Of a stretch of 56,995 bases of DNA, positions 8,290 through 30,988 are shown one piece after another. Position 1 is the first letter of the stretch; each line of letters opens with the position of its first letter. The DNA comes from a virus (lineage: Duplodnaviria; Caudoviricetes), in IMG/VR virus record IMGVR_UViG_3300035703_000115, positions 1 to 56,995 of that record. One strand, given 5' to 3'. The translations under genes and the position numbers were made by a program. The notes under the pieces are model-generated. The model ran no database searches. It saw only the letters and a program-made list of their open reading frames with translations, and was not told the DNA's origin.

Positions 8290-11200
8290 ATGCGCTTTGA
8301 TGTCAACGCCGCTCGCAAGGCTGGGTACACCGACGATGAGATTGCCGACTACCTTTCTGAGCAGCGCGGGTTTGACATTGGCTCGGCGCGGGAATCGGGC
8401 TATTCGTCTCGGGAGGTCTTGGACTTTCTGAGCAAGCCGGAGGTCAAAAAGCCGGCCGTCGCCAACACCCCGGCCTATGTCGAGGAGCCCATCAACTACG
8501 ACGATGCGGCAACCTCGATGGCGGGTACGCCTTCGCAATCAAACGGCGGCGGCGTCCTTCAGCGCATCGGCGCGGCGCTGCGGCCCGACCAAAATCGCAG
8601 CGTGCTTGAGGGGTACAAGCAGCCGGAGGCCGAGCGCCAAGCGGAGGTTGATCGTCGCCTGTCCTACGGTCAGGGTCCAATCAGCCAGAAGGTCGCGGCC
8701 GATGCTGACCGTGTTCGCAGTGCGCGTGGCACCAACGACCAGATCAAGTTCACCAGCCCGACCTATGAGAGCCGGGTGCGGGGGGTCGTTGACGCGATGG
8801 ACGAGCGCGGCGAGCGCTCTTTTGGCGACCTTGCCGCGCTTGGGCGTGATGGCGAGATTCAGCGGGCATTGACTCAGAGCAAGGCCGACGAGTTCCGCTC
8901 TGCCGGCGAGTGGGCCATCGACACCGCATCCAATGTGATGCAGGGCGCCGTGTCTCTGGCGCAGATGCCGGTCAATCTGATCGCGCCTGACGGCTCTCTG
9001 GCCGAGTCGCTGCGGCAGACCCAGAAGGAATTGCAGGCCGAGGAGTCTGATGTCCTCAAGGCCAGCCGTGAAGTCCTCAAGCAGCGGGTGATGAACGAGG
9101 AGGGCTTCTTCGGGCAATACGCCGCCACGGTCAAGCAACTGATCACAAACCCCACGCTCGCTATCTCTGAGGGCTTCAAGCAGTTGCCGATGTTCCTCGG
9201 GATCGTGGGCGCAGCCCGTGGTGGTGCGGCGGCGGGCGCTGCCGGCGTGGCCGCCGCAGGGCGTGTTGCTCCTACGGTTGCGCTGGCAGATGCGATTGGC
9301 GGCGGCGCTCTGACGGCGCGGGCCGCCGCTATCGGCAGCACTGTGGGCGGTGGCGCCGCAGCGGTGACGATGGCCGCGGGTGATGCGGCCGGTCAGACCT
9401 ACGAGGAACTGACCGATCCCCGGCGCACTCCGCGAGAAACCTGGGAGCAGAACCCAGACTATCAGCGCCTTGTGGCCGAGGGCAAGTCTCCGGATGAAGC
9501 GATCAATGAGTTGGCCGTTGCCAAGTCGCGCATGGCCGCGCTTGTGGCCGCGCCTCTTGGCATCTTGGGCTTCATGGGCGCAGAGGCGGCAGTCGCAGGC
9601 CGCGGTATTGTTCAGGCCGCAAGGGATGCGCTGACCTTCAAGGGTGCCGCAAAGTCTTTCGGCAAGGAAACGGTTGGTGAGCAGTTGGAGGAGGGCGGTA
9701 CACAGGCCGCATCCAACTTCGCCGTTTCTACGGTGAACCCAAACAAGTCAATCCTTGAAGGCGTGCCCGAGGCGATGGCACTGGCCGGCGTGACATCGAC
9801 GCCATTCGGCGCGATTGGTGCCTTGAGCAACTATCAGCAGGCGCGGGCTCAGTTGGACTCCGGACCTGATGTGGCGGCCCTCGTTAGCCGGGATGGTCAG
9901 ACCGCAATTGATGACCGCTTCGGCGACACCCTGCGCCCCGAGCGAGTGGCTGCCGAGCGCGAGCGCCTGGAGCGTATGCGCCGCCTGTCTGAGGCGCAGA
10001 GCGTGGATGAGGCGATTGAGTTGGCCAATGAGGTGGCCAATGCGCCGGTTGCGCCGCAGACGCCTGCTGCGCCCGCGGCGCCGGTAAACGCCGGGGATGA
10101 TCCGGTTCTGAGCAATGTGCTGACATCGCTCGGGGCACTGAGCAATCAACCAGGAGGCGTCAATGTCGGGGCATCAAATCAGCCTGCACCCACAGCTACA
10201 GGAGGCCCTGGAGTTGGGGGCGGTGACGTTCTCGGAAGCCTGGTTGCTGATGGACGAAATCCTGCTGCAGGACTGCGAGGTGGTGATGATGCCGGCGGAG
10301 TACCTAGTGTTAGTAGCCAAGGTGCAGTTGTGCTGGGCGGAGGTGCCGCCGGGGGTGGTCGTCCAGTAGTTCTCCAGAACCGCGACCGATCAACGGCGGC
10401 GTCCATCTCGCAGATGAACAGCATCGCGGCAGCACCCGACTATCTCAGGGCTGGCCCGAGCCGTGAGATGGTCACGGGTGCCCCGGTGGTTTTCGGGGAT
10501 GTGCCGGATTTTGCAGCGCTGGGGCGGCAGGAGACGGTTGTGGACGGGCGTGGCAATCGAGTTGCCGTGCAGTACGCCGTGGTGGATGCTGCCGATCTGA
10601 TCCCGTCCAACCGTGCGGATGGCACCCCGGTGTCTGAGTACGAGCAAGGCGCCGCCGGCAAACTGCGCGCGGTGGCCGGCAACGGCAGAACGGCTGGCCT
10701 GCAGGAGGCGTACAACCGCGGCACTGCGGGCGCCTATCAATCCGAGATGATGGCCGACTTGCCCAATCTCGGCGTTGACCCGGCTGCGGTGCAGTCGATG
10801 CAGCGTCCGGTCCTGGTACGGGTCATGTCGCAAGATGATGTGACACCCGACATGGGCGACCGCACGAACACGGCGGTGACGCAGAACTTGAGTCCTGTTG
10901 AGCAGGCGGCCAACGATGTGCGCCGAGTGGATGTTCGCGGGTTTGAGTTCACCGATGCGGGCGACCCGACACCGCAGACTGTTCGCTCGTTCGTGTTCTC
11001 TTTGCCTGAGTCCGAGCGCGGCAACTTGCTCAACGCTGACGGCACGCCGACGCGGCAGGCCGTTGACCGGCTCATGGGCGCCACATTCCGCGCCGCCTAT
11101 GGCAATGATGGGTTGGTGCAGTTGTACGCGCAGGCCACCGACCCGGATGCGCGGTCGGTGATCAACGCCGCGGCGATGGCGGCGGGCTCCATGTCCAGCC

Positions 11201-14200
11201 TGGTTGGGTCCGCCCCGGAGTTCGACATTCGAGGCGTGGTGTCGGATGCCATCGGGATGGCGGTCAATGCGTCCAGGCAGGGAGTTCGCCTCGCTGACTA
11301 TGCAGCCAACACCGATCTGACCACAGACGCTTATGCGGCTGACATTGCAAGGTTCCTGGGTGAGAATATCCGCTCACCCAAGAAGATGGCCGAGGGGCTG
11401 CGGGCGATGGCGAACTTTGCCGCGCAGCAGCAGCAGGCTCTGGTCAGCAACGCCACCAATGCCGGCCTGTTCGGGGATCAGCCCACGGCCAGCCGCCAGG
11501 AGATCATCAATGCCGTCTTCGGACAAGCCAACGGTCAACCCCAAGTCGCTGCTAGAAACGCCGCAGTGGCGCAGGATGGCGGTCAAGGTGCTCAACGGGC
11601 AGCAACCGACCCAGCAGGAGCAGGACGAGTTTCAGTCGATGGCGCTGCAGGAAGCCAAGCGGCGACTGGACGAAATGAGCAAGGCTCAGACCAGCAAGGA
11701 CTGACATCTCCCACGGTCGATCAGGTTCTGCAGCAGCAGGACCGTGCGGCCAATGAAGCGGAACTTGATCAGCGTGATCAGGTTCGACGCGAGAGCGAGG
11801 CGGGCGCCGATCAGTTCACGCTGCAGGCGCAGGATGGCCGGGTAGACAACACCGGCAGCCTGTTCTCAAACGACAGGGAGCAGCAGGACGAGGACTTCCT
11901 GCGGACCGTGTTCGGCGCCGAATCCGGCCAGGCCGGGCAGTCCAACTCTGGAGGCGGCACCACCAATTCCGCATCCCGCCTGCCGACCGTGGAGGGCGTG
12001 GGCTCTGTTGTGCAGATGAAGGTCGGGCAGACCTTCCAGATCCGTGACCAAGGTCAGGTTCACCAGGTTCGCGTGGTGGACTCCAAGTCATCGGGCGTTT
12101 CGTCCAGGGCTCTGGACATCATCGCCAAGGTGTTCGGCAAGCGTGTGGTGTTCGTGGACCCCGGCACCTTGGATGTCGATGGATTCGTGCGGCCTGACGA
12201 CAACCGCAACATCTACATCAGCGTGCGCTCCAGGATCAACCCGCTGGCCGTGCTTGGCCACGAGTTGACGCACCTGCTCAAGCGCGACAACCCGCAAGCC
12301 TACGCCGCCCTGGAGGCGGTGGTGATGCGCGAACTGCGCGAGGGTGCGGGCAAGAGCTTCTCTGCCTACTACGGACCCGGCGCCAATACCGAGGAATTGG
12401 TTTCCGACCTGGTGGGCAACCGCCTGATGGACAAGGACTTTCTGGTCAAGTTGTTCGCCGAGATCCAGGCTCAGAACCCGCAGGGCGCGCAGGGCATCAT
12501 CGCCAAGTTGGCCGCGATCATCAACCGGGTGGTTTCTCGGTTCATGGAGTTGTCCAAGCAGGCCGGCTTTGAGACGGACGCCTTGGTCAAGCGAGTGGCC
12601 CCGATCCAGGATGCGGTGCGGCAGGCTCTGAAGGAGTACGCGCTGCAGCAGGGTCTGCGGCCGGCGCAGATGGAGGTTGCGCTGGCGCGTGCGGGAGCGG
12701 GCTTGAGCATTGAGGGTGCGGCGCCCGTGCGGCGCAGTCCGGTTCGACCGGCCAGCGCGGATCGTGCAGACCTCAACCGTTCGCTCGGCGCGCAGCGCGT
12801 CTCTCCGCGACTGCCAACCGCAGTCAAGGCCACGGAAAATCCGATGGGCAACGACCGACTGCAGCCGGACCTAGATTCAGCCAAGCGGGACGCTGTTGTC
12901 TTCGCGCACAACATCAACCTGATGGCGCAGTACCCCAACTTCGTCAATGTTGGCGGCTCTGTGGACCAAATGGCCGAGGCCATGATCACGCAGATGAAGG
13001 ACAACCTGGTGTGGCTGCACAACCAGTGGCGTCCTGAACTGCGCGAGCGGTCCCGACTCTGGTATGTGGGTGGGAATCGAATCTCACACCGTATGGCTTC
13101 GCGGTTTAGGACCGAGCCCTGGCGTGTGGCTGCCGTGATTGCGGCGACCAGCCCTCAGAAGGACTGGTTCCAGAACGTCTCTTTGGCCGAGCGCATTTTG
13201 GAGGCGGTGGTCAACAACTCGCAGATGGCCTGGACGGCGCAGATGACCGAGACGGTCAACTCCCGCGACTGGGGCGGCAAGGAGTCGCGCGATCTGGGGT
13301 TCACGCCGCGCAATGAAATCTCTCGCCTGCAGGGCAAGACCTTGCGTGATCTGTACGACCCTCAGAATCCGCAGTCTCTTTTGGATATGGCGGTATGGGT
13401 TCGCGCTTGGGATGAAACGTACAACCCCCGCATGGCCAGGGTGATCTCGCCTGAAGGCAAGTTCATTGATGAGTTCGACTCGACCAAGGACGGTCGTCCA
13501 ATCGGCCTGCGTTGGCAGAGTTTTGCGACCATTGCCAAGACGCTGGACATCCTGACTGCGCCTGATCGGGCGACAGTGTCTTCCATGATCGGCTCGAACC
13601 ATAAGGTTCGCTCGTTCTACAACAACATCATCGCGCCGTTTGATGATGAGGACGTGACCATCGACACCCATGCCGTGGCCGCCGCGCTGATGCGACCACT
13701 GGGGTCGTCAGCCACCGAGGTGGCTCACAACTTTGGCACCAACGAAAAGGGGATGCCGGGGCCGAAGAACAGTGCCATCACGGGACTTTTCGGCACCTAC
13801 CCGATCTACGCTGAAGCGTATCGCCGGGCTGCCCGCGAGGTTGGGGTGCTTCCTCGCGAGATGCAGTCCATCACTTGGGAGGCGGTGCGCGGCCTGTTCC
13901 GTCCAGAGCAGAAGAATGAGAGAATCAAGGGCGAGGCAGACCGCATTTGGCGCGAAGTCTCTGAGGGAGAACTGGATGTCAACGAAGCGCGGCAGCAAAT
14001 CTCTGGCCTGGTTGGTGGCATCCAAGACCCCGCCTGGGTCCGATCCCCTGCTGGAAGTAATGAAGCAGCGCGGGATTCCTCTTACGCAGGAGGAGTACCT
14101 GAAGATGGCGTACCCGGAAGGGGTGCCCAACCCGGTGCCGCCCGAGGTGATGGCCGAGATGCCAGCGCAACTCCGGCAAGCCTGAGTCGCGGGCGACGAG

Positions 14201-17200
14201 TCGCGCCCAACCCTGACTCCGCAAACTTCAAGCGTTGGAGCGGTAACGCCCCGCTGATCACCTCTGCAGCAGCGGTTGACCATGTCTTCAAGACGGGTCA
14301 GAAGGTGGTGCTTGAGGGCTTCCACGGTACTGGCCGGGGTGATCGTGTTGGCACGGTGTTCCAGCGCAAGCGCGCCACCTCCGGCCCGATGGCGTTCTTC
14401 ACCAGTTCGCCGGTGCTTGCGAGTTCATACGCGCAGGGGAAGCCAGACACCAGCCGCGCACTGGAGGACAACCCGTTTGAGAGTTGGTTCAAGTTCAAAG
14501 GGAAGGGAATGCGAACGGCGGTCAACCTCGACCGCGCGTGGTATTTCCTTGATCAAGAGAGCAAGGCCAAGATCGCCAAGCGGATGCCTGACATTCGCAC
14601 GGACGATGACGGCAACATCGTCTACGAAGAGGGCGGCGGCGACCTCGGCAACTACGACTGGGAACTGAAGCAAACCAAGTCGGCCTACCTGCGTGAGGGT
14701 AACCCGCTGAAGGCGGCCGTTGAATCTTGGTTGAGCAGCGGCTCCATCTACGGCGACGAGGGCAGTTTCCGCCAGGTGCTGCGCTTGGCCGGCTTCCCGA
14801 TGGATGCGCTAGATTACGACAACCCGCAGGAGACGTACCCGTTCGTCTACAAGGTCTATGTCTCCATGCTCAACCCGCTGGTGACCAGCGACATTCCGAA
14901 GGAAGTGGACGATGCCTTGCGCGCGGCTGCCGCAAAGGACCGCAGCAAGGCCAAGTCACAGTTCGGCGTGGACTCATGGGACAAGAACACCCGCACGCTC
15001 AAGGAGTGGGTGGGCGAGTACCTGAACCCATCCAATGGGGATAACCGCTACGTTTGGACGAGCATCCCTGATAAGGTGACCGAGGTTTTCAAGAGCCTGG
15101 GTTATGACGGGATCATCGACTACTCGGGGAAGAACGGTTCCACCGAAGTCGCGCCGGTCTACATCCCGTTTGAAGAGGGTCAGGTCAAGAGCGCCCTGAG
15201 CAACAGCGGCGAGTTTGACCGCAGCAAGAAGGACATTCAGGCCAGCAGATCGCGTGAGCGCCTACTGTCAATGCCTGCGGTGCCGGTGAGTCCGCTACCC
15301 GATGGTATGGCTCTTGGTGATCTTCGAGTCTTGGCTAGTGAGCGGTACAAGGCCGCTGCCAAACTTGGCCCCGTCAGGATGAAGGATGACCGCGCCGTGC
15401 TGTTGACATCGGTGGGGATGAAGAAGTCGCGCAGCCACAGCGCCGACAAGCGGGTGCTGGACTTGATGGGCTCAATTCGCGAGGTGCTTGGCGCGGCCGA
15501 GCCCGTGGCTTCGATTCCGCATCAGAAGGAAAACCCAGGCGACTCAATCCGCGCGTGGCACTACTACGGCGCGAAGGTGGATATCGATGGCGAGGAGGCG
15601 TTTGCCAAACTCGTTGTGCGCGAGTCCGTCAACGGCGAGATTTACTACGACACCGACCTGTCTGGCGTGGAAGATATCAGCGGTCGTGCTGGTGACGCTG
15701 CCCGATCCAAAACCGGGGCGGCAGCCGTTTCCGCTGACAAAAGAACTCTAGCCGATCTTTTGGGCGCGGGCAATCTTGGGAGTGAGGTTGAGTTGAGCCG
15801 CGGCCGCTCCGAAATCGGTTTCTACTCCGCCCTGTCTGAGGGCATTGACGGCATCAAGGTCAGTGCTGCGCCTGCAGCCGGATGGCGCGATGCCATCAAG
15901 GGCCTGGTGAACAAGGGTGCGGCCAAGGCCGATGAGGTGGAGTGGTCGGGGGTCAATGACTTCCTGAGCCTGCAGGCCGGCAAGGTGACCAAGCAGCAGG
16001 TGCTGGACTACCTGGGCGCCAATGGGGTGCGGGTAGAGGAGGTGGTGCTGGGCGGCAACACCGCATTGACGCCAAGCGAGCAGACCGAGATGGACGAACT
16101 GCTTGACTTGCGCCGGCGCTACGAAGAGGGAGAGGCCGGAGTCTACGAGGCGGCCGACGCCGACAGGTTGGAAGAACTGATGCGCAAGCGCATGCAGGAC
16201 GCCGAAGACGTGGCGCTGCCAAAGTACGGCCAGTACACCCTCCCCGGCGGCGAGAACTACCGCGAGGTGCTGCTGACGCTGCCAGATAGGCGCGAGCTGC
16301 CAGAGGGCTACAAGGTCAAGAATGACCCCGACTATGGGTGGATGGTTGAGAGCCCCGAGGGCGGCATGGTGTGGCAGGGCAGAACGCGAGAGGAGGCTGT
16401 CGCCAATGCCAGAAGCAGCCCGACTGTGCTGGGCCAGAAGCAGCCGGACAAGTCTTACCGTTCCTCACACTGGGACCAGCCCAACGTCATCGCCCACATC
16501 CGCGTCAACGACCGCACCGATGCCGATGGCAAGCGCGTGCTGTTCGTGGAGGAGATTCAATCTGACTGGGGCCAGGAGGGGAAGAAGAAGGGTTTTGCCG
16601 AGAAGTCCCCGAGGCCGGTCCGCGTGTTTGACCGGCGAACTGGGGCGGAGGTTGCACGGTTCAATACCGGGCGCGAGGCTGAGGAATTCATCGCGTCGGA
16701 AGATCCGCGCATGGACAGGCTTGAGTACGAGGAGGACCAGGGTCGCAACTCCGGCATCCCATCCGCACCCTACGTCACCAAGACCGAAGGCTGGCTGAAC
16801 CTCTCCCTCAAGCGCGTGATGATCATGGCCGCAGAGGGAGGCTATGACAAGGTTGCGTTCGTCAATGGCGAGCAGTCTGCTGATCGGTATGACCTTTCAA
16901 AGCAGATCAGCAAGGTTCGCTACGAGGACAGGAGCATCCAAGGCTCTGGCAAGCCCACGTTGGATGGTTCGCCTGAGAGCGGGGAGTTCTATGCCTATGA
17001 CCTTGAAGGGAATCTACAGATTAACAGGCGCCTCAATGACCCAGTCAAGGAGTTGCCTGACCTAATCGGTAAACAACTGGCTGAACGTCTTTTGAATGCT
17101 GAGCCGACAGAAGCTCGCGGCTATGGCGGTGGCTTCCGTCGCCGAGAGGTTTCTGGCGTTGACCTCAAAGTCGGCGGCGAAGGCATGAAGACCTTCTACG

Positions 17201-20200
17201 ACACCATCGTGCCCACGGCGCTGAAGAAGCTGCTGCCCAAGGTGGGTGGTGGGCAGATGAGCAATGTTGATGTTGTCTTGCAAGAAGCATACGAGCGCGA
17301 TCCCGAAGGCTTCCCGGCCAAGATTGCCGCTCAACCCGGCTTTGATGTCACCCCCGAGATGGTGCAGAAGGTATCCGATGGGGTGCCGCTGTTCAGCCGC
17401 GGCCGCAACTCTCAGATCGACACGCCTGAGTTCAAGCGGTGGTTTGGGGATTGGGAGGCTGTTATGCACCGCGTCTTCCTAGACGGCCCCCCGGTCGCCT
17501 CAGTAGCTGGCGACACATTCAGCTCTGATGGAGTGCCGCTAACGGAGAAGGTGCCCAAGTGGTACGCGGAGCGCGGCTTCTCTACGGTGGATGTGGCCGG
17601 TATCGGGCCAGTCTCGCTAGACGAGAAGGCCGTAAAAAACAGCCTTTCGCACGGTATCGGGAGGGATAAGGCCGCTGCGTTTGCGGTGGTCCCCGATGTT
17701 CTTCTAAAGGGCCGCATCATCCACCGTGAGCGGCATGATGGTGGCCGCGACACCGACATGGTGTATCACATAGCCGCGCCGGTCAGGATTGGTGGCCGCG
17801 ACTTTATCGCTGACGTATTGATTCGCGAGGACAGCAACATCCGCCGCATGTACGTCCACGAAGTCGTGCTCAAAGAAAAACTCCAGCAGTCCGCCTTCAA
17901 GACCAGTGCAGATGCAGTCGAAACTGGGGTGCGTGCTGGAGCGGGTGCTGGAGCGATGCGTAGTGTGCTTCAGAGAGTTTTCACCGTCAACCCCGCAACC
18001 GTCTCCAAAGTCGTCGATGCTGATGGCAAGCCGATGGAGGTGTACAACGGCTCGCCGGACGGGATTGAGGCGTTTGAAGAAGGCCGAGACGCCTACTTCA
18101 CCAGCAGCCGCCGATTGGCCGAGGAGTACACCGACCGCCGAGGTATGTGGTTGTCCAAGGGCGCGAACCCGACTGTCACCTCTGCTTACCTGTCAATTCA
18201 GAACCCGTTGGTGATTGACGCGCTTGGCAAGCGCAACGACAACATCCCGGTGCCGTGGCAGGAGTGGAGCCCGAAGGTATTCGGCAGGCTTCCAGATGGT
18301 GCAGTGAGCGTTGAGGCTGCGGCCAAGCGTGCCCGTGAGATGGGTTACGACGGTCTGATTGTTCGCAACGTGGTGGACAGCGCCACGACCGATGGCAAGA
18401 CCAAGGGCGACGTGTTCGTGGCCTTCAGCCCCGAGCAGATCAGGGAATCGACCGGCGACAGCAGCGACATCACGAAGTCCTCTGGCCGCGCCACCAGTGA
18501 CCTGGACCTGATCGCCAAGCGCGACGAGATGGGCCGATTGAAGTTCGGCCTGGGCAGCAAGGCTTACAGCCTCGTGGCCGAGGTGGCCAACAACGTGCTG
18601 GATCGGGTTCGCATGAAGCCCATCTCCGAAGACCTCGCTCGGGCCATGCTCAAGATGAAGGTCGCCATCGAGCAGGCGCAGGAGCGCACGGTGGATGTGG
18701 CCAAGTCCATGAGCGAACTGGACCCCGCCGAGCGGCAGATGATCTCGGATGTGATTGAGCAGGAACTGACCGCAGGCGTGGTGCCCCCAACTCGTGTGCT
18801 GCAGATCGCGGCCACCCTGCAGGGCATCATGTCCGAGCAGTCCAAGGAACTGATCGACCTGGGCATGCTGCGCCAGGAAGATGCTGACCGATGGGATGGA
18901 CGCTACATCCCGCGCTTCTACGAGCAGACTCTTGGCAAGGAAGCCTCGGCCTGGATGAAGGCGGTCAAGCAGTTGTTCACTCGCCCGCGCGCGATGATGG
19001 GCATCAAGGGCAACAACCTGAAGTCTCGCGGTCTGTGGGAGACGATCCCTGCGGACGAGTTGGCATCGTGGACGGCCAATGGTTGGGAGGCTCGCGACCC
19101 CGCGTTCGATCCGGCCACCTCAACCGAGGTCCGCATCTGGCGCGACTACACCCGCCCCGAGCGGGATGGCATGGGCGAGATTCGGGACGCCATGTTCCGC
19201 TTCGTCATGGGCTACCAGAAGGCCCAGCGCGACATCGCCTTGGGCAAGATGTACCGGCACATCAACCAAACGATGGCTAGCAGCGTCGAGAAGGATGGAT
19301 TCGTTCGGGTGCCGGACTCCAGCATCGATGGCGTGGACGTGCCGTCCTACGGCGAGCTGGCCGGCAAGTGGGTTCCGCGCGAGGTGCTGGATCACCTGAG
19401 CGCATTCGACTCCACGCAGCGCAACGCCCTGACCCGCTTCTACCAAAAGGCTCTTTCCTACTGGAAGGAGGGCAAGGTGGTGCTCAACCCGGTGAGCCAT
19501 GCCAACAACATCCTGTCCAACCTGACGATGGCCCACTTCGCCGGCGTGTCGTACTGGGACGGCGGCAAGTACATGGCCGCCCTGCGTGACATGGTCAAGG
19601 GCTCGCCCATGCTGGACGAGGCCAAGGACGCGGGCCTGTTCGTGGGATCGTTCAACCAGGCCGAGATCGCCAAGGCGCTGCCCGAGGAGTTGAAACTCCT
19701 GGCCGGCAAGTCCGAGAGCAAGGCCGGGCAGGCGGTGGACTTCGCCTTCACCGCGATGACGTTCTTCTTGCGAAAGCCGATGAACATGGCCTACGAGGTG
19801 GAGGACCAGTACTTCCGGTACCTGCTGTACCGCGACGCACGACAGCGCGGCATGGAGCCGGAGGACGCGGTGCGCCACTCGCAGCGGCACATCTTCACCT
19901 ACGACGACCTGCCGCAGGGCGCGCGCGTGGTGCGCGACACGGCGCTGCCATTCTTCGCCTACACCTACAAGGTGATCCCGGTCCTGGCCAAGACGGCGCT
20001 GGAGTACCCGCATCGGTACGCGATGCCAGCGGCCATCCTGTACACCCTCAACGCCCTTGGATTCGCGATGGCCGCCGGCGATGAGGACGATGACTGGATG
20101 GAGATCATCCGCAAGTACGCCACCGACGCCGACTTCCGCAAGAAGGTCAGCGACCTGGAGGGCCAAGAGCGCGAGAACCTGCCGCCGTGGATGCAGGGCG

Positions 20201-20859
20201 CAAGCGCCTCTCTTGGAACGCCCAAGGCGATCCGCCTGGGCGAGGATGACAAGACCGGTCTGCCGGTGTACCTGGACGTGAGCAAGATCTTCCCCGGCGG
20301 CGATCTGTTGGATGTCACATCGAACGCCGGCGGCCTGCCGTGGCTGCAGCCGCTCACGCCTTCAAGTCCTGTGCTCAACGCGGCCGCGGCGCTGTTCTTC
20401 AACCGCGATCCGTTCTACGGCAAGGACCTGGTGGACAAGAACGACACCCCCGCAGAGGCCGCAGAGAAGCGCGCCGAATGGGCGTGGAAGCAGTTCTCGC
20501 CGGCCATCACGGTCTACAACTACCACTGGGACCGCGGCATGAACGTCTTGGCCAACGCCACCGGAACGGACATCCTGGGCTACACCGGGCGCGGCAAGGA
20601 CGGCATCCCGGTAGATGCGATGTACGCGGCCATGCAGACCTTCGGCATCAAGGCTCGGCCCATTGATCTGGAGAAGTCGGCCGACATCAACGCCAACAAG
20701 GAGAAGTCCATCATCCGCTCCATTGAGGCAGAAATTTCGCAACTCAAGCGCCTGGAGGCCAAGGGCGCAATGACCTCGGAGAAGGCTCAAAAGCAGATCG
20801 ACCTTGAGAACGAGAAGATCCAGCGCATGCGCGACAAGCAAACTGAGTCAGTTGATTGA
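8290..20859 (+). CDS. Giant polyvalent protein (probably virion-injected): ddrB-like ParB domain, zincin peptidase-like domain, TIDTHA domain, two ART-PolyVal-like domains, two BECR/LPD3-like RNase domains, EEIQSD domain, helical C-terminal region
   Basis: 4189 aa uninterrupted. Motifs: LQNRDR/YAVVDAADL/VAGNGR (~10372-11480); HELTH (~12259); VTIDTHA (~13654); FHGT..FFTS..GYDGII (~14320-15120); WHYYG..KLVVRE..YYD (~15555-15650); EEIQSDW (~16549); FKRWFG..YNGS..YFT..GYDGLI (~17430-18360) interrupted by YHIAAPV..ADVLIRED..MYVHEV. Confidence 0.85.
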   Translation: MRFDVNAARKAGYTDDEIADYLSEQRGFDIGSARESGYSSREVLDFLSKPEVKKPAVANTPAYVEEPINYDDAATSMAGTPSQSNGGGVLQRIGAALRPDQNRSVLEGYKQPEAERQAEVDRRLSYGQGPISQKVAADADRVRSARGTNDQIKFTSPTYESRVRGVVDAMDERGERSFGDLAALGRDGEIQRALTQSKADEFRSAGEWAIDTASNVMQGAVSLAQMPVNLIAPDGSLAESLRQTQKELQAEESDVLKASREVLKQRVMNEEGFFGQYAATVKQLITNPTLAISEGFKQLPMFLGIVGAARGGAAAGAAGVAAAGRVAPTVALADAIGGGALTARAAAIGSTVGGGAAAVTMAAGDAAGQTYEELTDPRRTPRETWEQNPDYQRLVAEGKSPDEAINELAVAKSRMAALVAAPLGILGFMGAEAAVAGRGIVQAARDALTFKGAAKSFGKETVGEQLEEGGTQAASNFAVSTVNPNKSILEGVPEAMALAGVTSTPFGAIGALSNYQQARAQLDSGPDVAALVSRDGQTAIDDRFGDTLRPERVAAERERLERMRRLSEAQSVDEAIELANEVANAPVAPQTPAAPAAPVNAGDDPVLSNVLTSLGALSNQPGGVNVGASNQPAPTATGGPGVGGGDVLGSLVADGRNPAAGLRGGDDAGGVPSVSSQGAVVLGGGAAGGGRPVVLQNRDRSTAASISQMNSIAAAPDYLRAGPSREMVTGAPVVFGDVPDFAALGRQETVVDGRGNRVAVQYAVVDAADLIPSNRADGTPVSEYEQGAAGKLRAVAGNGRTAGLQEAYNRGTAGAYQSEMMADLPNLGVDPAAVQSMQRPVLVRVMSQDDVTPDMGDRTNTAVTQNLSPVEQAANDVRRVDVRGFEFTDAGDPTPQTVRSFVFSLPESERGNLLNADGTPTRQAVDRLMGATFRAAYGNDGLVQLYAQATDPDARSVINAAAMAAGSMSSLVGSAPEFDIRGVVSDAIGMAVNASRQGVRLADYAANTDLTTDAYAADIARFLGENIRSPKKMAEGLRAMANFAAQQQQALVSNATNAGLFGDQPTASRQEIINAVFGQANGQPQVAARNAAVAQDGGQGAQRAATDPAGAGRVSVDGAAGSQAATGRNEQGSDQQGLTSPTVDQVLQQQDRAANEAELDQRDQVRRESEAGADQFTLQAQDGRVDNTGSLFSNDREQQDEDFLRTVFGAESGQAGQSNSGGGTTNSASRLPTVEGVGSVVQMKVGQTFQIRDQGQVHQVRVVDSKSSGVSSRALDIIAKVFGKRVVFVDPGTLDVDGFVRPDDNRNIYISVRSRINPLAVLGHELTHLLKRDNPQAYAALEAVVMRELREGAGKSFSAYYGPGANTEELVSDLVGNRLMDKDFLVKLFAEIQAQNPQGAQGIIAKLAAIINRVVSRFMELSKQAGFETDALVKRVAPIQDAVRQALKEYALQQGLRPAQMEVALARAGAGLSIEGAAPVRRSPVRPASADRADLNRSLGAQRVSPRLPTAVKATENPMGNDRLQPDLDSAKRDAVVFAHNINLMAQYPNFVNVGGSVDQMAEAMITQMKDNLVWLHNQWRPELRERSRLWYVGGNRISHRMASRFRTEPWRVAAVIAATSPQKDWFQNVSLAERILEAVVNNSQMAWTAQMTETVNSRDWGGKESRDLGFTPRNEISRLQGKTLRDLYDPQNPQSLLDMAVWVRAWDETYNPRMARVISPEGKFIDEFDSTKDGRPIGLRWQSFATIAKTLDILTAPDRATVSSMIGSNHKVRSFYNNIIAPFDDEDVTIDTHAVAAALMRPLGSSATEVAHNFGTNEKGMPGPKNSAITGLFGTYPIYAEAYRRAAREVGVLPREMQSITWEAVRGLFRPEQKNERIKGEADRIWREVSEGELDVNEARQQISGLVGGIQDPAWVRSPAGSNEAARDSSYAGGVPEDGVPGRGAQPGAARGDGRDASATPASLSRGRRVAPNPDSANFKRWSGNAPLITSAAAVDHVFKTGQKVVLEGFHGTGRGDRVGTVFQRKRATSGPMAFFTSSPVLASSYAQGKPDTSRALEDNPFESWFKFKGKGMRTAVNLDRAWYFLDQESKAKIAKRMPDIRTDDDGNIVYEEGGGDLGNYDWELKQTKSAYLREGNPLKAAVESWLSSGSIYGDEGSFRQVLRLAGFPMDALDYDNPQETYPFVYKVYVSMLNPLVTSDIPKEVDDALRAAAAKDRSKAKSQFGVDSWDKNTRTLKEWVGEYLNPSNGDNRYVWTSIPDKVTEVFKSLGYDGIIDYSGKNGSTEVAPVYIPFEEGQVKSALSNSGEFDRSKKDIQASRSRERLLSMPAVPVSPLPDGMALGDLRVLASERYKAAAKLGPVRMKDDRAVLLTSVGMKKSRSHSADKRVLDLMGSIREVLGAAEPVASIPHQKENPGDSIRAWHYYGAKVDIDGEEAFAKLVVRESVNGEIYYDTDLSGVEDISGRAGDAARSKTGAAAVSADKRTLADLLGAGNLGSEVELSRGRSEIGFYSALSEGIDGIKVSAAPAAGWRDAIKGLVNKGAAKADEVEWSGVNDFLSLQAGKVTKQQVLDYLGANGVRVEEVVLGGNTALTPSEQTEMDELLDLRRRYEEGEAGVYEAADADRLEELMRKRMQDAEDVALPKYGQYTLPGGENYREVLLTLPDRRELPEGYKVKNDPDYGWMVESPEGGMVWQGRTREEAVANARSSPTVLGQKQPDKSYRSSHWDQPNVIAHIRVNDRTDADGKRVLFVEEIQSDWGQEGKKKGFAEKSPRPVRVFDRRTGAEVARFNTGREAEEFIASEDPRMDRLEYEEDQGRNSGIPSAPYVTKTEGWLNLSLKRVMIMAAEGGYDKVAFVNGEQSADRYDLSKQISKVRYEDRSIQGSGKPTLDGSPESGEFYAYDLEGNLQINRRLNDPVKELPDLIGKQLAERLLNAEPTEARGYGGGFRRREVSGVDLKVGGEGMKTFYDTIVPTALKKLLPKVGGGQMSNVDVVLQEAYERDPEGFPAKIAAQPGFDVTPEMVQKVSDGVPLFSRGRNSQIDTPEFKRWFGDWEAVMHRVFLDGPPVASVAGDTFSSDGVPLTEKVPKWYAERGFSTVDVAGIGPVSLDEKAVKNSLSHGIGRDKAAAFAVVPDVLLKGRIIHRERHDGGRDTDMVYHIAAPVRIGGRDFIADVLIREDSNIRRMYVHEVVLKEKLQQSAFKTSADAVETGVRAGAGAGAMRSVLQRVFTVNPATVSKVVDADGKPMEVYNGSPDGIEAFEEGRDAYFTSSRRLAEEYTDRRGMWLSKGANPTVTSAYLSIQNPLVIDALGKRNDNIPVPWQEWSPKVFGRLPDGAVSVEAAAKRAREMGYDGLIVRNVVDSATTDGKTKGDVFVAFSPEQIRESTGDSSDITKSSGRATSDLDLIAKRDEMGRLKFGLGSKAYSLVAEVANNVLDRVRMKPISEDLARAMLKMKVAIEQAQERTVDVAKSMSELDPAERQMISDVIEQELTAGVVPPTRVLQIAATLQGIMSEQSKELIDLGMLRQEDADRWDGRYIPRFYEQTLGKEASAWMKAVKQLFTRPRAMMGIKGNNLKSRGLWETIPADELASWTANGWEARDPAFDPATSTEVRIWRDYTRPERDGMGEIRDAMFRFVMGYQKAQRDIALGKMYRHINQTMASSVEKDGFVRVPDSSIDGVDVPSYGELAGKWVPREVLDHLSAFDSTQRNALTRFYQKALSYWKEGKVVLNPVSHANNILSNLTMAHFAGVSYWDGGKYMAALRDMVKGSPMLDEAKDAGLFVGSFNQAEIAKALPEELKLLAGKSESKAGQAVDFAFTAMTFFLRKPMNMAYEVEDQYFRYLLYRDARQRGMEPEDAVRHSQRHIFTYDDLPQGARVVRDTALPFFAYTYKVIPVLAKTALEYPHRYAMPAAILYTLNALGFAMAAGDEDDDWMEIIRKYATDADFRKKVSDLEGQERENLPPWMQGASASLGTPKAIRLGEDDKTGLPVYLDVSKIFPGGDLLDVTSNAGGLPWLQPLTPSSPVLNAAAALFFNRDPFYGKDLVDKNDTPAEAAEKRAEWAWKQFSPAITVYNYHWDRGMNVLANATGTDILGYTGRGKDGIPVDAMYAAMQTFGIKARPIDLEKSADINANKEKSIIRSIEAEISQLKRLEAKGAMTSEKAQKQIDLENEKIQRMRDKQTESVD
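10163..10369 (+). CDS. Nested small ORF 1 (68 aa) in the +1 frame of the giant gene
   Basis: AGGAGG 5 nt before the ATG; nearly all codons end in G/C in this frame, while the host frame becomes Gly-rich filler with A/T-ending codons. Confidence 0.7.
   Translation: MSGHQISLHPQLQEALELGAVTFSEAWLLMDEILLQDCEVVMMPAEYLVLVAKVQLCWAEVPPGVVVQ
11510..11704 (+). CDS. Nested small ORF 2 (64 aa) in the +1 frame of the giant gene
   Basis: AGGAG 7 nt before the ATG; helical-looking product MPSSDKP...EAKRRLDEMSKAQTSKD; begins just after the ParB-like domain. Confidence 0.6.
   Translation: MPSSDKPTVNPKSLLETPQWRRMAVKVLNGQQPTQQEQDEFQSMALQEAKRRLDEMSKAQTSKD
13976..14185 (+). CDS. Nested small ORF 3 (69 aa) in the +1 frame of the giant gene
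   Basis: GAGGGAG 6 nt before the ATG; product includes DPLLEVMKQRGIPLTQEEYLKMAYPEG; its stop coincides with the SRGR module junction. Confidence 0.7.
   Translation: MSTKRGSKSLAWLVASKTPPGSDPLLEVMKQRGIPLTQEEYLKMAYPEGVPNPVPPEVMAEMPAQLRQA
15668..15738 (-). ncRNA. Candidate antisense structured sRNA 1, downstream of RNase-like domain 1
   Basis: Closing stem GUCAGCGG/CCGCUGAU, inner GCUGCC/GGCAGC, and CCCGG-UUUUGGA-UCGGG; G-U pairs form only on the minus strand; the 5' end lies 7 nt from a predicted -10. Confidence 0.55.
15745..15773 (-). promoter_or_regulatory. Antisense sigma70-like promoter TTGCCC-N17-TAGAGT
   Basis: Reverse complements of gggcaa (15768-15773) and actcta (15745-15750), 17-bp spacer. 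Confidence 0.55.
17872..17954 (-). ncRNA. Candidate antisense structured sRNA 2, downstream of RNase-like domain 2
   Basis: Closing stem GCUCCAGCA/UGCUGGAGU, inner CCGC/GCGG and CCAG/CUGG, CAGU-UUCG-ACUG tetraloop, 3' UUUUUCUUU tail. Confidence 0.6.
17962..17990 (-). promoter_or_regulatory. Antisense sigma70-like promoter TTGACG-N17-CACACT
   Basis: Reverse complements of cgtcaa (17985-17990) and agtgtg (17962-17967), 17-bp spacer. Confidence 0.5.
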
Positions 20860-21723: not shown

Positions 21724-22761
21724 TCAAAGTGCCTTGCGCCTGGACGCTGCCGAGCGGTCGTAAACCTTGGCCGTGGTGGTCGGGCTGGCGTGGATTTCGG
21801 GCAGTGTTCCAAGCTGTTCCTTGTGGGCCGTGACGTAGTGCGCCCGCAGATCGTGGAAGGTGAATTTGCGCCGGATGACCTTGGCGTCCAGCGCGGCCTT
21901 GATGAACTTCTGCCACTGCGCGGCGAACCCGAAATAGGTGTACGCATTGCCGTGCTGATTGCGGAACACCGTGCCCTCGCGCGGGTTGGTTGCAAGCGCC
22001 CGCATCCTGCCCAGCAGTTCGCGCATGGCGGGGCTGATCTCAATGCGCTCAACACGCTCATCGCGTCCACGCTGTTTGCTGCGCTTCAGACGCACTTCGG
22101 TGCTGGTCACCTGAGTCCATGTCATGTCGAGGAATTCGGCCTGACGGGAGCCTGCCAACGCAGCGAATTCAGCCGCCCCGCAGATGATCAGACTCTGCCC
22201 GCCACGGGCTTGAGCAAATGCCGCCAGGGCCTTGAGGTCTGCTGTCTCGGGAGAGACAGTGCGCGGCCTCTCTTTGTTGCGCTTGACTTGCCGCTCACGG
22301 CAGGGATTGACCAGCGCCTCCCCCCTCTCAATGGCTAGACCGATCAGGATGCTCAACAGCGAAATCTCGCGGTTGGCACGCACTGGGGCGTCAGACCTCT
22401 CCACGCGCAAATATTGCGCGATCATGGGCGCGGTGATGTCGGCGGCCTGCATGGCTCCGAAAACCCGCAGCACCGCGACCGAGTAGGCCGTGTAGTCCTG
22501 CTGTGTGCGGGGCTTGAGATCACGCCACAGTGGTGTGAGTTGGTAGGTGTCCCACAGACCCGCTATCGTGCCGATGGCGGGGCCGCTGCGGGTGAGGTCA
22601 AGCACCTTGCGGATCGCCGCCTCGCGGTCTGTGCCGAGGTTGATTGGCTTGCCGCGCAGGGGGTGGTAGCGGTAGGTGACGGTCTTTCCATCCTTCCAAG
22701 GCCGCGCCTCCATCAGCGGCAACAAGCCTTGAGCACTGGCGCGGTCTTTGGGTCGGATCAT
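21724..22761 (-). CDS. int: Tyrosine integrase
   Basis: GSRQAEF (R), FHDLRAH (HxxR), H...VY (catalytic Tyr); next to attP. The start could also be 22776. Confidence 0.92.
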   Translation of the reverse strand: MIRPKDRASAQGLLPLMEARPWKDGKTVTYRYHPLRGKPINLGTDREAAIRKVLDLTRSGPAIGTIAGLWDTYQLTPLWRDLKPRTQQDYTAYSVAVLRVFGAMQAADITAPMIAQYLRVERSDAPVRANREISLLSILIGLAIERGEALVNPCRERQVKRNKERPRTVSPETADLKALAAFAQARGGQSLIICGAAEFAALAGSRQAEFLDMTWTQVTSTEVRLKRSKQRGRDERVERIEISPAMRELLGRMRALATNPREGTVFRNQHGNAYTYFGFAAQWQKFIKAALDAKVIRRKFTFHDLRAHYVTAHKEQLGTLPEIHASPTTTAKVYDRSAASRRKAL

Positions 22762-22970
22762 GCTGACACTCTCCATTTCGGCCCATTGACGGGCGTTGCC
22801 TGGGCCATATTACGCCTGTCCCAATCTGCCCTTCGCACCAGAGGCTTGCCGTTGGGCTTCACATCGACCGGCAGGCCAAGTCCGCGCAGGAAGCGAACCT
22901 GGGCGTGGCCCTGTACCAGCGGCTCGCAGATCGCGTCAATCTCTTGCTGAGTGAGGATAGGCAGGCTCAT
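22758..22970 (-). CDS. Putative excisionase, DUF4224-like
   Basis: LTQQEIDAIC...AQVRFLRGLGLP...GKPLVRR; overlaps the int start. Confidence 0.7.
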   Translation of the reverse strand: MSLPILTQQEIDAICEPLVQGHAQVRFLRGLGLPVDVKPNGKPLVRRADWDRRNMAQATPVNGPKWRVSA

Positions 22971-29299: not shown

Positions 29300-29644
29300 C
29301 TACGGCTTGGCGCGGGGCTTGTCGCTCTCGTCTCGCCAGTCGATGTCGCCAAAGTCCATGACGCTGTCTTCGGCCGGGCAGTCCATGCTCACGCCCTTCG
29401 GGCTTTCCCAGACGTAGCAGATTCGGTAGTCCACATGGATGGTGCCCTTCATGGGGATGCGGACCACGCGCAATGTGGCGTTGGGCATTTCATAGACACG
29501 CTCAATCGGCCCCTGCTTGAACATCTCGGCGACCTTGGCCCGCTCCTTTTCCCGGCGCTCCTTGGCCCGCCTTTCTTTGTCTGAATCGCCCGTGCAGCCG
29601 GCGATTGCGACTGACGCGACCAGGGCGAAAAGTGTTGATCTCAT
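29300..29644 (-). CDS. Lipoprotein co-transcribed with cI (possible superinfection exclusion)
   Basis: Signal peptide with lipobox IAG-C; ATGA overlap with the cI stop. Confidence 0.6.
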   Translation of the reverse strand: MRSTLFALVASVAIAGCTGDSDKERRAKERREKERAKVAEMFKQGPIERVYEMPNATLRVVRIPMKGTIHVDYRICYVWESPKGVSMDCPAEDSVMDFGDIDWRDESDKPRAKP

Positions 29645-30342: not shown

Positions 30343-30378
30343 CCTGGCAATGCTATGACGCGGGCGTTCAGCAATTTC

Positions 30379-30408
30379 TTGACAGCATCGTTTAGACTGA
30401 TCTAAACT
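30379..30408 (+). promoter_or_regulatory. PR promoter (TTGACA-N18-TAAACT) with operator GTTTAGA-CTGA-TCTAAAC
   Basis: Perfect -35; palindrome at 30390-30407; cro ATG lies 7 nt past the -10. Confidence 0.8.
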
Positions 30409-30414
30409 TTGCGC

Positions 30415-30630
30415 ATGAACCTGAACGATTGGCTTGACTTGGAACTTGGCCGCTCGGTCGCCTTGGCCCAGCACTTCGGATTGACCCGCAGTGCCATCAG
30501 CCAGTGGCGAACGAACGGCGTTCCACCCTCGCGAATGAAAGCCGTTCGCGACTTCACCAATGGCGAAGTGACCCTGGAGGAGATGGTGCCCGACACCGGC
30601 TCCGAGGCCGACAGCCGCACGGCGGCCTGA
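30415..30630 (+). CDS. cro: Cro-like regulator (YdaS-like)
   Basis: ALAQHFGLTRSAISQW...TNGEVT; divergent from cI. Confidence 0.85.
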   Translation: MNLNDWLDLELGRSVALAQHFGLTRSAISQWRTNGVPPSRMKAVRDFTNGEVTLEEMVPDTGSEADSRTAA

Positions 30631-30985: not shown

Positions 30986-30988
30986 TGG

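What the first reader, a model, noticed from the sequence alone, without database searches (positions are those of the whole stretch)
15668..15773. Antisense promoter and tRNA-like sRNA directly behind the first BECR/LPD3-like RNase domain
A minus-strand TTGCCC-N17-TAGAGT places +1 at about G15738, the first base of an 8-bp closing stem. The predicted RNA is GUCAGCGG AAAC GGCUGCCGC CCCGG UUUUGGA UCGGG CAGCGUCACCAGCACGA CCGCUGAU AUCUUCCA. It has a 5-bp stem with a 7-nt U-rich loop (anticodon-arm geometry) and a CCA a few bases downstream. Two stem positions are G-U on the minus strand but A-C mismatches on the plus strand, which favours the antisense RNA. Inference: a decoy or inhibitor RNA for an anticodon nuclease, analogous to type III antitoxins. 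No clear terminator is visible.
Basis: partly seen in the sequence, partly recalled or inferred. Interest (0 to 1): 0.85.

Follow-up and report, generated by a model that had tools for sequence, protein, structure and literature searches.

The report
Antisense hairpin RNA gene inside phage effector gene
Inside the giant injected-protein gene of a temperate phage, the stretch just after each LPD3 domain carries on the opposite strand a conserved promoter followed by a long hairpin, most likely a small antisense RNA gene hidden in the coding sequence, but it does not look like a tRNA.

Summary
In this sequence alone they are near chance: the promoter pattern occurs 2 times against 1.5 expected, and 154 of 8338 equal-sized windows of the gene fold as well.

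Comparison with relatives shows the element is real.
- In 12 homologues the minus strand keeps TTGnC, a 17-nt spacer and TAnnnT. A 24-pair rod hairpin follows: 90.4% of cells paired against 30-48% when slid, and 12 pairs with compensatory changes.
- G-U cells favour the minus strand, 25 against 4.
- Synonymous codon identity rises from about 0.3-0.45 to 0.7-0.86 over the hairpin.
- The encoded peptide is predicted to be mostly disordered.
- The window's second LPD3 domain has the same unit, supported in 9 sequences.
- So do further LPD3 lineages, including cultured Pseudomonas phage H66 and Achromobacter phage CF418P1.

It is one extended hairpin, not a cloverleaf. The CCA is kept in only 5 of 12, and LPD3 is not shown to be an RNase.

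Best reading: a cis-antisense small RNA gene that travels with the LPD3 module. Its function is inferred, and no RNA data were available.

The parts
8290..20859 (+). 4189-aa polyvalent (virion-injected type) protein gene that contains both units
   Evidence: ORF listed and translated. Pfam: ddrB-ParB, DUF7178, LPD3 (two stretches), ART-PolyVal.
15337..15648 (+). First LPD3 domain coding region
   Evidence: PF18798, 50.2 bits (cut-off 27), residues 51-154 of window:15187-15789. AlphaFold2 core pLDDT above 90.
15768..15773 (-). -35-like hexamer TTGCCC of unit 1
   Evidence: T, T, G and the C at hexamer position 5 are invariant in 12 of 12 homologues; TTGACA or TTGACG in 6 of them.
15745..15750 (-). 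-10-like hexamer TAGAGT of unit 1, 17 nt after the -35
   Evidence: A2 and T6 are invariant and T1 is present in 10 of 12; the spacer is 17 nt without gaps in all 12. T1 is made by a CTA Leu codon; NTA codons are 12 of 446 Leu+Ile codons in this ORF.
15676..15738 (-). Unit 1 hairpin: 63 nt, rod-like, 24 pairs; predicted +1 at about G15738
   Evidence: MFE. Covariation in 12 homologues. Strand asymmetry. The only strong consensus fold in the module. Synonymous-site conservation.
15666..15675 (-). Pyrimidine-rich tail after hairpin 1 (AUCUUCCA..), weak as a U tract here
   Evidence: The same position reads UUUUUUCU in L011 and L013.
17545..17853 (+). Second LPD3 domain coding region
   Evidence: PF18798, 38.5 bits, residues 7-109 of window:17527-18069.
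17985..17990 (-). -35-like hexamer TTGACG of unit 2
   Evidence: TTGAC[GA] in 6 and TTGGCG in 3 of 9 sequences.
17962..17967 (-). -10-like hexamer CACACT of unit 2 (weak), 17 nt after the -35
   Evidence: Relatives have GACACT in 4, CACAGT in 1, and TATAGT, TATGGT and TATGCT in 1 each.
17880..17954 (-). Unit 2 hairpin: 75 nt, rod-like
   Evidence: Fold -31.0 kcal/mol, z -2.86. RNAalifold gives 27 pairs, 10 with compensatory change. 93.8% of cells paired against 22-44% when slid.
17871..17879 (-). U-rich run UUUUUCUUU directly after hairpin 2 (terminator-like)

Best explanation
Each LPD3 domain of this temperate phage's giant polyvalent-protein gene is followed by a compact transcription unit on the opposite strand, written into the inter-domain linker codons. 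The unit has a sigma-70-type promoter (TTGnC, 16-17 nt, TAnnnT or a weaker form). About 5-8 nt after the -10 hexamer an imperfect rod-like hairpin of 63-85 nt begins. In many relatives a U-rich run follows it.

The most likely product is a small, stable, fully hairpin-closed cis-antisense RNA of about 70-90 nt made by host RNA polymerase. By analogy with known phage and transposon antisense RNAs, it would pair with the complementary hairpin in the polyvalent-gene mRNA and lower that mRNA or protein. This could act on leaky late transcripts in the lysogen, and in trans on incoming phages that carry the same LPD3 module.

Shown here: the conserved structure, the strand preference, the conserved promoter geometry, nucleotide-level selection, and the link to LPD3 modules.

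Inferred only: that the RNA is made, where it ends, and what it does.
For: 1. **Structure, unit 1.** In 12 homologues sharing 43-97% protein identity, the 24 pairs of the window's MFE hairpin are paired in 90.4% of cells against 30.2-48.0% when the partner is slid. 12 pairs show compensatory change against 7.2 +/- 1.6 in shuffles (0 of 500). 37 cells changed on both sides against 12.2.
2. **Structure, unit 2.** In 9 sequences, 27 pairs are paired in 93.8% of cells against 21.8-43.6% slid. 10 compensatory pairs against 3.8 +/- 1.2 (0 of 500).
3. **Strand.** Consensus energies are -17.3 against -9.0 kcal/mol for unit 1 and -36.2 against -31.1 for unit 2.
4. **Specificity.** Across the codon-aligned LPD3 module (8 sequences, 69 windows, both strands), every consensus fold is -5.3 kcal/mol or weaker. 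The exceptions are the two windows that hold the hairpin: -15.7 and -11.3 on the minus strand, -7.6 and -4.0 on the plus strand.
5. **Selection at the nucleotide level.** Codon identity given the same amino acid is 0.29-0.55 in the domain and 0.71-0.86 at 15691-15740. The encoded peptide has low AlphaFold2 confidence, pLDDT 68/50/79/65 per block of ten residues.
6. **Promoter.** The T, T, G and position-5 C of the -35, and A2 and T6 of the -10, are invariant, with a 17-nt ungapped spacer in 12 of 12. T1 of the -10 is made by rare CTA, TTA or ATA codons in 10 of 12. The residues under the -35 vary as [G/V][N/K], which keeps TTGxC.
7. **Generality.**
   - The same layout lies behind other LPD3 modules examined as single sequences: L042, L026 and L039, L041, L028, and L026b with the -35 beyond the contig end.
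   - It is also in cultured Pseudomonas phage H66 (hairpin z -5.22) and Achromobacter phage CF418P1.
8. **Orphan copies.** Remnants keep the promoter and hairpin without the LPD3 domain: L014 between a zeta-toxin-type gene and hsdR, and L035.
9. **Precedent.** The STnc6030 antisense RNA of prophage BTP1 lies opposite a DNA-injection gene and excludes superinfecting BTP1 (PMC7067206; abstract and passages read).
Against: - No transcript evidence: no RNA run holding this sequence is listed.
- In the window alone, the promoter (8 of 12) and the fold are near chance.
- The -10 of unit 2 is poor in 6 of 9 sequences (GACACT, CACACT, CACAGT), yet the hairpin is still conserved. The hairpin may therefore serve without that promoter.
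- A2 and T6 of the -10 and TT of the -35 sit at first or second codon positions. Part of the promoter conservation could follow from conserved residues.
- The U tract after unit 1 is weak in the window, and L028 has none.
- The hairpin exists on both strands, so a function in the mRNA is not excluded.
- The target lies in the middle of a 12.6-kb ORF, far from any ribosome binding site. A regulatory effect would have to work through cleavage or decay.
- Covariance model R1 does not find the diverged lineages L045, L041 or L043 at E up to 10. Their assignment rests on single-sequence folds and a permissive promoter pattern.
Confidence: 0.5

Rival explanations
1. The RNA works through protein binding rather than base pairing. 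The hairpin would be bound by, inhibit, or be a cofactor or substrate of the LPD3 domain or the ADP-ribosyltransferase that often follows it. This is an antidote or decoy in the broad sense of the first reader, similar in effect to a type III antitoxin.
For: - The unit travels with the LPD3 module whatever domain follows it.
- It is also behind a solo 209-aa LPD3 protein (L042).
- Orphan copies persist without the domain.
- In several relatives LPD3 plus its tail is followed by ART-PolyVal.
- No trans target was found in the phage genome beyond 13-17 nt matches at chance level.
Against: - LPD3 has no demonstrated nucleic-acid activity. Pfam gives LPD3 only and Foldseek finds no PDB hit at E <= 0.001.
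- There are no tandem repeats such as type III antitoxins have.
- The RNA is antisense to the gene, not upstream on the same strand.
- The shape is not tRNA-like.
- Nothing in these tools can test RNA-protein binding.
Confidence: 0.15
2. The selected structure is in the sense mRNA. A hairpin placed a few to 30 codons after the LPD3 domain would slow ribosomes so the domain can fold, or would mark an RNase processing site or a frameshift site. On this reading the promoter-like hexamers are by-products of the conserved residues.
For: - The hairpin also forms on the plus strand: -29.6 kcal/mol, and consensus -7.6 and -31.1 kcal/mol.
- It sits just after a folded domain in a linker.
- A +1-frame stop (TAG, TAA or TGA) directly follows hairpin 1 in 10 of 12 sequences.
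- A -1-frame TAG follows hairpin 2 in 5 of 7 (read).
- Part of the hexamer conservation sits at non-synonymous positions.
Against: - G-U cells number 25 on the minus strand against 4 on the plus, and consensus energy is better on the minus strand in both families.
- The U-rich run is 3' of the hairpin on the minus strand only.
- Rare NTA codons make T1 of the -10.
- The [G/V][N/K] variation preserves TTGxC rather than a residue type.
- There is no conserved slippery site before hairpin 1, and the off-frame stops are in different frames in the two families.
Confidence: 0.12
3. The hairpin plus U run is mainly an intrinsic terminator or insulator that stops antisense transcription running into the giant gene. 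No functional small RNA is made.
For: A hairpin followed by U-rich runs in many lineages: UUUUUCUUU in unit 2, UUUUUUCU in L011 and L013, UUUCUCUUUU in L042, UUUCGUUUUCC in L026.
Against: - A promoter-like element with fixed spacing sits immediately upstream in every lineage that has a tail.
- The units lie 5 kb and 3 kb inside the gene, far from the convergent integrase-side genes.
- The U tract is weak in unit 1 of the window and absent in L028.
- Ordinary terminators are much shorter than 24-27 pairs.
Confidence: 0.08
4. A DNA-level element: a cruciform or single-strand hairpin that promotes recombination and module shuffling at the LPD3 boundary.
For: Similarity to every relative ends shortly after the tail. 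The 96%-identical relative L002 diverges abruptly at 15817, and others at about aa 2491-2512.
Against: - The break points lie about 35-80 nt beyond the hairpin, not at it.
- A double-strand cruciform should not prefer G-T over A-C on one strand.
- A recombination site does not explain the promoter geometry or the U run.
Confidence: 0.04

Closest known systems
STnc6030 antisense RNA of Salmonella prophage BTP1 (PMC7067206; abstract and passages read)
   Same: A prophage-encoded RNA antisense to a late gene for a DNA-injection protein. It is expressed in the lysogen and acts against superinfecting phage, with a proposed base-pairing mechanism.
   Different: - STnc6030 is 786 nt, was found by RNA-seq and spans two genes. 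No conserved compact hairpin or link to a protein domain is described in the passages read.
- The unit here is about 70-90 nt and one hairpin. It is conserved with covariation across distant phages, tied to one protein module, and not yet shown to be transcribed.
IS10/Tn10 RNA-OUT (recalled from memory, no call)
   Same: An RNA of about 70 nt, folded as one long imperfect stem-loop. It is transcribed from a promoter inside the coding region on the opposite strand, is very stable, and acts in cis and in trans on copies with the same sequence.
   Different: RNA-OUT covers the 5' end and ribosome binding site of the transposase mRNA. Here the target is in the middle of a 12.6-kb ORF. No sequence relationship was tested.
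Phage lambda OOP RNA (mentioned in PMC7067206; its 77-nt size is recalled)
   Same: A short phage antisense RNA with its own promoter and terminator hairpin, overlapping the end of a coding region.
   Different: OOP overlaps the 3' end of cII and belongs to the lysis-lysogeny switch. This unit lies in a late, virion-protein gene and recurs after a specific protein domain.
Type III toxin-antitoxin RNA (ToxI-like; features recalled)
   Different: There are no tandem repeats. The RNA is antisense rather than upstream on the same strand. There is no evidence that LPD3 is an endoribonuclease.
tRNA and tRNA-like elements
   Same: An 8-bp closing stem, and a 5-bp stem with a U-rich 7-nt loop, in the single sequence.
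   Different: ARAGORN finds none and Rfam gives no match. Covariation supports one rod with the 7-nt loop partly closed. The CCA is kept in 5 of 12.

Membership tests
cis-encoded antisense small RNA (RNA-OUT, OOP, STnc6030 kind) | Own promoter on the strand opposite the target gene | tested here: met
   TTGnC, 17 nt, TAnnnT are conserved without gaps in 12 of 12. Analogous hexamers are in unit 2 and in other lineages. This is sequence evidence only: 8-11 of 12 consensus matches, counted by eye.
cis-encoded antisense small RNA (RNA-OUT, OOP, STnc6030 kind) | Conserved secondary structure of the antisense transcript | tested here: met
   covariation; strand preference; the only strong consensus fold in the module.
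cis-encoded antisense small RNA (RNA-OUT, OOP, STnc6030 kind) | A detectable transcript with defined ends | not testable with these tools
   No RNA run holding the sequence is listed. The 3' end is inferred from U-rich runs in relatives.
cis-encoded antisense small RNA (RNA-OUT, OOP, STnc6030 kind) | Effect on the complementary mRNA or its product | not testable with these tools
   This needs genetics or biochemistry.
tRNA-like RNA or tRNA mimic | Cloverleaf, or at least an acceptor arm plus an anticodon-type arm with a 7-nt loop | tested here: not met
   ARAGORN finds 0 genes. The conserved structure is a single unbranched hairpin; model R1 has 0 branch points. Pairs 42/48 and 43/47 close the loop.
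tRNA-like RNA or tRNA mimic | Conserved 3' CCA | tested here: not met
   CCA is present in 5 of 12 homologues at that place.
Type III antitoxin RNA | Tandem direct repeats upstream of, and on the same strand as, an endoribonuclease toxin gene | tested here: not met
   No tandem repeats at 15300-16100. The element is antisense and internal to the gene.
Intrinsic terminator | G+C-rich hairpin directly followed by a U run | tested here: inconclusive
   - Clear in unit 2 (UUUUUCUUU), in L011 and L013, and in L042 and L026.
- Weak in unit 1 of the window (AUCUUCCA) and absent in L028.
- The tool's terminator scan does not list either unit.
Pfam LPD3 (PF18798), the flanking protein domain | Score above the curated cut-off of 27 bits | tested here: met
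   50.2 and 38.5 bits for the two domains.
   No PBECR family at E up to 10. Foldseek against PDB gives no match at E <= 0.001; best TM-score 0.24. The model's helix followed by four strands is compatible with many folds.
Any Rfam 15 family | Match at the gathering score | tested here: not met
   0 matches in the window, L043, L042 and L026. At E up to 10 the only hit is an unrelated snoRNA model at 15996-16117.

The most novel reading that the evidence does not exclude
The unit is a self-contained RNA immunity or antidote cassette that belongs to the LPD3 effector module. The small hairpin RNA, made by host polymerase in lysogens, would disable any incoming phage whose injected polyvalent protein or its mRNA carries the matching module, or would bind and silence the LPD3 domain itself. 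Bacteria would retain orphan copies, stripped of the protein domain, in defence islands as RNA-only anti-phage elements. In this reading the 'conserved linker peptide' of polyvalent proteins is an RNA gene read in reverse. Domain shuffling of these giant proteins would move effector and countermeasure together.
Probability: 0.2. Interest if true: 0.85.

Novelty: new variant of a known kind. Interest (0 to 1): 0.72.

Why it matters
Polyvalent proteins are giant multi-domain effectors that phages and conjugative elements deliver into cells. The founding survey contains neither 'antisense' nor 'small RNA' in its main text (PMC5512222, term search).

A promoter-plus-hairpin RNA gene written into the linker after one particular domain would have three consequences.
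- It would add an unannotated RNA family, absent from Rfam.
- It would explain why a disordered linker is conserved.
- It would show a protein module and an RNA gene being shuffled as one piece.

The unit is also present in cultured phages: F116-like Pseudomonas phages and Achromobacter phage CF418P1 (34 phage records hit). The idea can therefore be tested directly at the bench.

Tried and rejected
- **RNA evidence.** The look-up of sequencing runs listed 5 runs, none on record as RNA. No RNA holder is listed.
- **Searches with module 1.**
  - Near or distant DNA similarity to cultured phages: only a 108-nt, 75% match elsewhere in the query.
  - tblastn of module 1 against plasmids and phages: no match.
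  - 400 further genomes of the order of G002: no match.
  - The metagenome scan added only 2 loci.
- **Covariance model R1.**
  - It finds only its own training loci, or duplicates of them, in the window plus 31 loci.
  - There is no extra copy in the window.
  - It does not detect unit 2, L045, L041 or L043.
- **Trans targets.** The best matches of either RNA elsewhere in the window are 13-17 nt at E about 0.04-0.05, which is chance level.
- **tRNA, tmRNA and Rfam.** Nothing found.
- **LPD3 fold.** The AlphaFold2 model is good (pLDDT 85.9), but Foldseek against PDB gives no match at E <= 0.001.
- **Programmed frameshift.** Considered because off-frame stops follow both hairpins. Set aside because there is no conserved slippery site and the frames differ.
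- **Other stable hairpin.** The one at 12223-12285 (minus strand) was looked at. It lies in the metallopeptidase-motif region and has no promoter-like element.
- **Literature.** Searches for F116-like phage transcriptomes returned nothing relevant in the listings.
- **Wrong pattern.** One search used a wrong spacer length. It was corrected.
- **Not seen.** Supplementary files of PMC5512222 (domain alignments) and PMC7067206 could not be seen and may bear on LPD3 annotation.
Full report
**Context**

The window is a whole virus record of 56,995 bp, estimated 97% complete. It is a temperate phage:
- integrase at 21724-22776 (minus strand)
- CI-like repressor at 29641-31131 (minus strand)
- DnaB-like helicase, large terminase and portal

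The finding lies inside one 4189-aa ORF, 8290-20859 on the plus strand. Pfam finds ddrB-ParB, DUF7178, two LPD3 stretches and ART-PolyVal in it. That makes it a polyvalent protein in the sense of Iyer et al. 2017 (PMC5512222; passages read).

The first LPD3 domain ends at about 15648. The finding covers the next 35 or so codons.

**The observation**

The single-sequence statistics are unimpressive:
- The hexamers match 8 of 12 consensus positions and fall below the tool's promoter threshold.
- The core pattern occurs 2 times in the window against 1.5 expected.
- The fold is -31.0 kcal/mol with z -3.35.
- 154 of 8338 windows of equal size in the same gene fold at least as well.

**Relatives of unit 1**

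Scans of viral, genome and metagenome contigs gave 11 further loci that encode this LPD3 subfamily together with its tail. Protein identity to the window is 43-97%.

Structure on the minus-strand alignment A4:
19 cells changed on both sides against 6.5 in shuffles (0 of 500).
- The full MFE structure has 24 pairs and forms one rod with internal loops. It is paired in 90.4% of cells against 30.2-48.0% slid.
- 12 of its pairs show compensatory change against 7.2 +/- 1.6 in shuffles (0 of 500). It has 32 further pair types against 24.7 (1 of 500).
- Several compensations use a synonymous change on one side, for example in L014 and L010. This is nucleotide covariation, not protein covariation.

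Negative control: a sliding RNAalifold scan over the whole codon-aligned module used 8 sequences and 69 windows on both strands. No consensus fold is better than -5.3 kcal/mol except the two windows that hold the hairpin. Those give -15.7 and -11.3 kcal/mol on the minus strand and -7.6 and -4.0 on the plus strand.

Synonymous sites: codon identity, given the same residue, rises from 0.29-0.55 in the domain to 0.71-0.86 at 15691-15740.

Protein model: the AlphaFold2 model from a 37-sequence alignment is confident for the domain. Over the tail it drops to pLDDT 68/50/79/65/40 per block of ten residues, with only a short helix at TLADLL. The 'conserved linker peptide' is therefore better explained by the nucleic-acid constraint.

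**Which strand**

The plus strand has 118, 4 and 34.
- Consensus energies favour the minus strand in both families: -17.3 against -9.0 and -36.2 against -31.1 kcal/mol.
- About half of the G-U cells are at terminal pairs, so the argument is good but not overwhelming.

**Promoter**

In the extended alignment A5:
- The T, T, G and position-5 C of the -35 are invariant in 12 of 12. TTGACA occurs in 3, TTGACG in 3 and TTGCCx in 6.
- A2 and T6 of the -10 are invariant, and T1 is present in 10 of 12.
- The spacer is 17 nt with no gap in any sequence.
- The stem starts at an invariant G, 7 nt after the -10.

T1 is the third base of a Leu or Ile codon that is CTA, TTA or ATA in those 10 sequences. Such NTA codons are 12 of 446 Leu+Ile codons in the window's ORF, and 1-6% in the other G+C-rich relatives L006, L007 and L015.

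The residues over the -35 vary as [G/V][N/K]. That is an odd pattern for a protein, but it preserves TTGxC.

Caveat: A2, T6 and the TT of the -35 sit at first or second codon positions. They could in part reflect residue conservation.

**A second unit in the same gene**

Behind the second LPD3 domain the minus strand reads:
- TTGACG at 17990-17985, then 17 nt, then CACACT at 17967-17962
- a 75-nt rod hairpin at 17954-17880 (-31.0 kcal/mol, z -2.86)
- UUUUUCUUU directly after it

Eight related sequences were found. In the 9-sequence alignment A8:
- 27 pairs are paired in 93.8% of cells, against 21.8-43.6% when slid.
- 10 pairs show compensatory change against 3.8 +/- 1.2 in shuffles (0 of 500).
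- The measure 'further pair types' is not above the shuffles (229 of 500).

The -10 is weak in 6 of the 9 (GACACT in 4, CACACT, CACAGT). It is good in 3 (TATAGT, TATGGT, TATGCT), and those 3 have the weaker -35, TTGGCG.

**Other LPD3 lineages, examined as single sequences**

| Source | -35, spacer, -10 | Hairpin and tail |
|---|---|---|
| L042, solo 209-aa LPD3 protein | TTGACA, 17, CACAGT | hairpin, then UUUCUCUUUU |
| L026 | TTGACG, 17, TACCTT | hairpin, then UUUCGUUUUCC |
| L041 | TTGACA, 16, GATGTT | hairpin, then UUUUCG |
| L028 | TTGCCT, 17, TAACTT | hairpin of about 83 nt, no U run |
| L026b | TATACT; -35 beyond the contig end | hairpin, then UUUUUCG |
| Pseudomonas phage H66 | TTGCGG, 16, TACACT | hairpin of about 78 nt (-44.4 kcal/mol, z -5.22) |
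| Achromobacter phage CF418P1 | TTGACG, 17, TACCGT | hairpin with the same UUUGG loop as unit 1, then UUUGCUUCC |

- One LPD3 gene, L027, stops right after the domain. It has no tail and no unit.
- These single-sequence cases rest on MFE folds and a permissive pattern, so they show consistency rather than proof. Covariance model R1 does not reach L041, H66 (L043) or CF418P1 (L045), the three of them it was run on.

**Orphan copies**

- L014 keeps only the last 20 or so residues of LPD3 plus the tail, in an 87-aa ORF. It lies between a zeta-toxin-type gene (24.3 bits) and hsdR in a bacterial MAG. Its promoter and hairpin are intact.
- L035 is a 104-aa remnant ORF carrying a unit-2 type tail without LPD3, in a phage that also has a full module.

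**What it is not**

- No tRNA or tmRNA.
- No Rfam family.
- No tandem repeats.
- The CCA is kept in 5 of 12, and the 7-nt loop is partly closed by covarying pairs.
- LPD3 matches no PBECR family and no PDB fold at E <= 0.001. Iyer et al. list the LPD domains as being of elusive function.

**Mechanism**

Shown here: a conserved structured element favoured on the minus strand, preceded by a conserved promoter-like element and linked to LPD3 modules.

Inferred: host RNA polymerase makes a hairpin-closed RNA of about 70-90 nt. The hairpin plus U run probably terminates it. The RNA pairs with the complementary mRNA hairpin and lowers expression of the polyvalent gene.

Because the giant gene is the last late gene next to the integrase, the RNA could act on leaky late transcripts in lysogens. 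It could also act in trans on related incoming phages, as reported for STnc6030 of prophage BTP1 (PMC7067206).

The link to one protein module and the orphan copies leave room for a protein-binding or antidote role.

No expression data were available.

**Novelty**

- The main text of the polyvalent-protein survey contains neither 'antisense' nor 'small RNA'.
- The listings showed no report of such an RNA, although these searches cannot prove absence.
- Antisense RNAs in phages are a known kind.
- What is new is a compact, covarying unit written into a protein linker, recurring after one domain family and moving with it.

Noticed in passing
window 15817 (compare L002:2853): The closest relative is 96% identical in DNA from 14500 up to 15817 and then loses all similarity. 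Other relatives lose similarity at about aa 2491-2495. This is a module junction about 35-80 nt past the hairpin.
   Followed up: partly
L014:1516-1779 (= L025): An orphan remnant: an 87-aa ORF that keeps only the end of LPD3 plus the tail, with intact antisense promoter and hairpin. It lies between a Zeta_toxin/Phd-like pair and a type I restriction hsdR gene in a Lysobacterales MAG.
   Followed up: partly
L035:968-1279: A second orphan: a unit-2 type tail in a 104-aa remnant ORF without LPD3, in a phage record that also has a complete LPD3 module at L039.
   Followed up: partly
window 15749-15751 and 17964-17966: Off-frame stop codons directly follow both hairpins on the plus strand. A +1-frame TAG, TAA or TGA follows hairpin 1 in 10 of 12 homologues. 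A -1-frame TAG follows hairpin 2 in 5 of 7. The frames differ and no conserved slippery site was seen.
   Followed up: partly
window 9199-9385, 10021-10110, 10420-10500: The most stable 63-nt folds of the giant ORF (-36 to -41.5 kcal/mol) cluster in Ala/Gly-rich, 70-84% G+C low-complexity parts of the gene. They were not compared with relatives.
   Followed up: no
window 15826-16800: The module that follows unit 1 (starting SRGRSEIGFYSAL...) has no Pfam match at E <= 0.001. It differs from the ART-PolyVal domain that follows the same tail in L007, L011, L013 and L015.
   Followed up: no
32 Pseudomonas phage records carry the same LPD3 plus tail.
   Followed up: partly
window 12223-12285 (-): A stable hairpin (-36 kcal/mol) antisense to the region that encodes an HELTHLL zincin-like motif. 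No promoter-like element lies upstream and conservation was not checked.
   Followed up: partly
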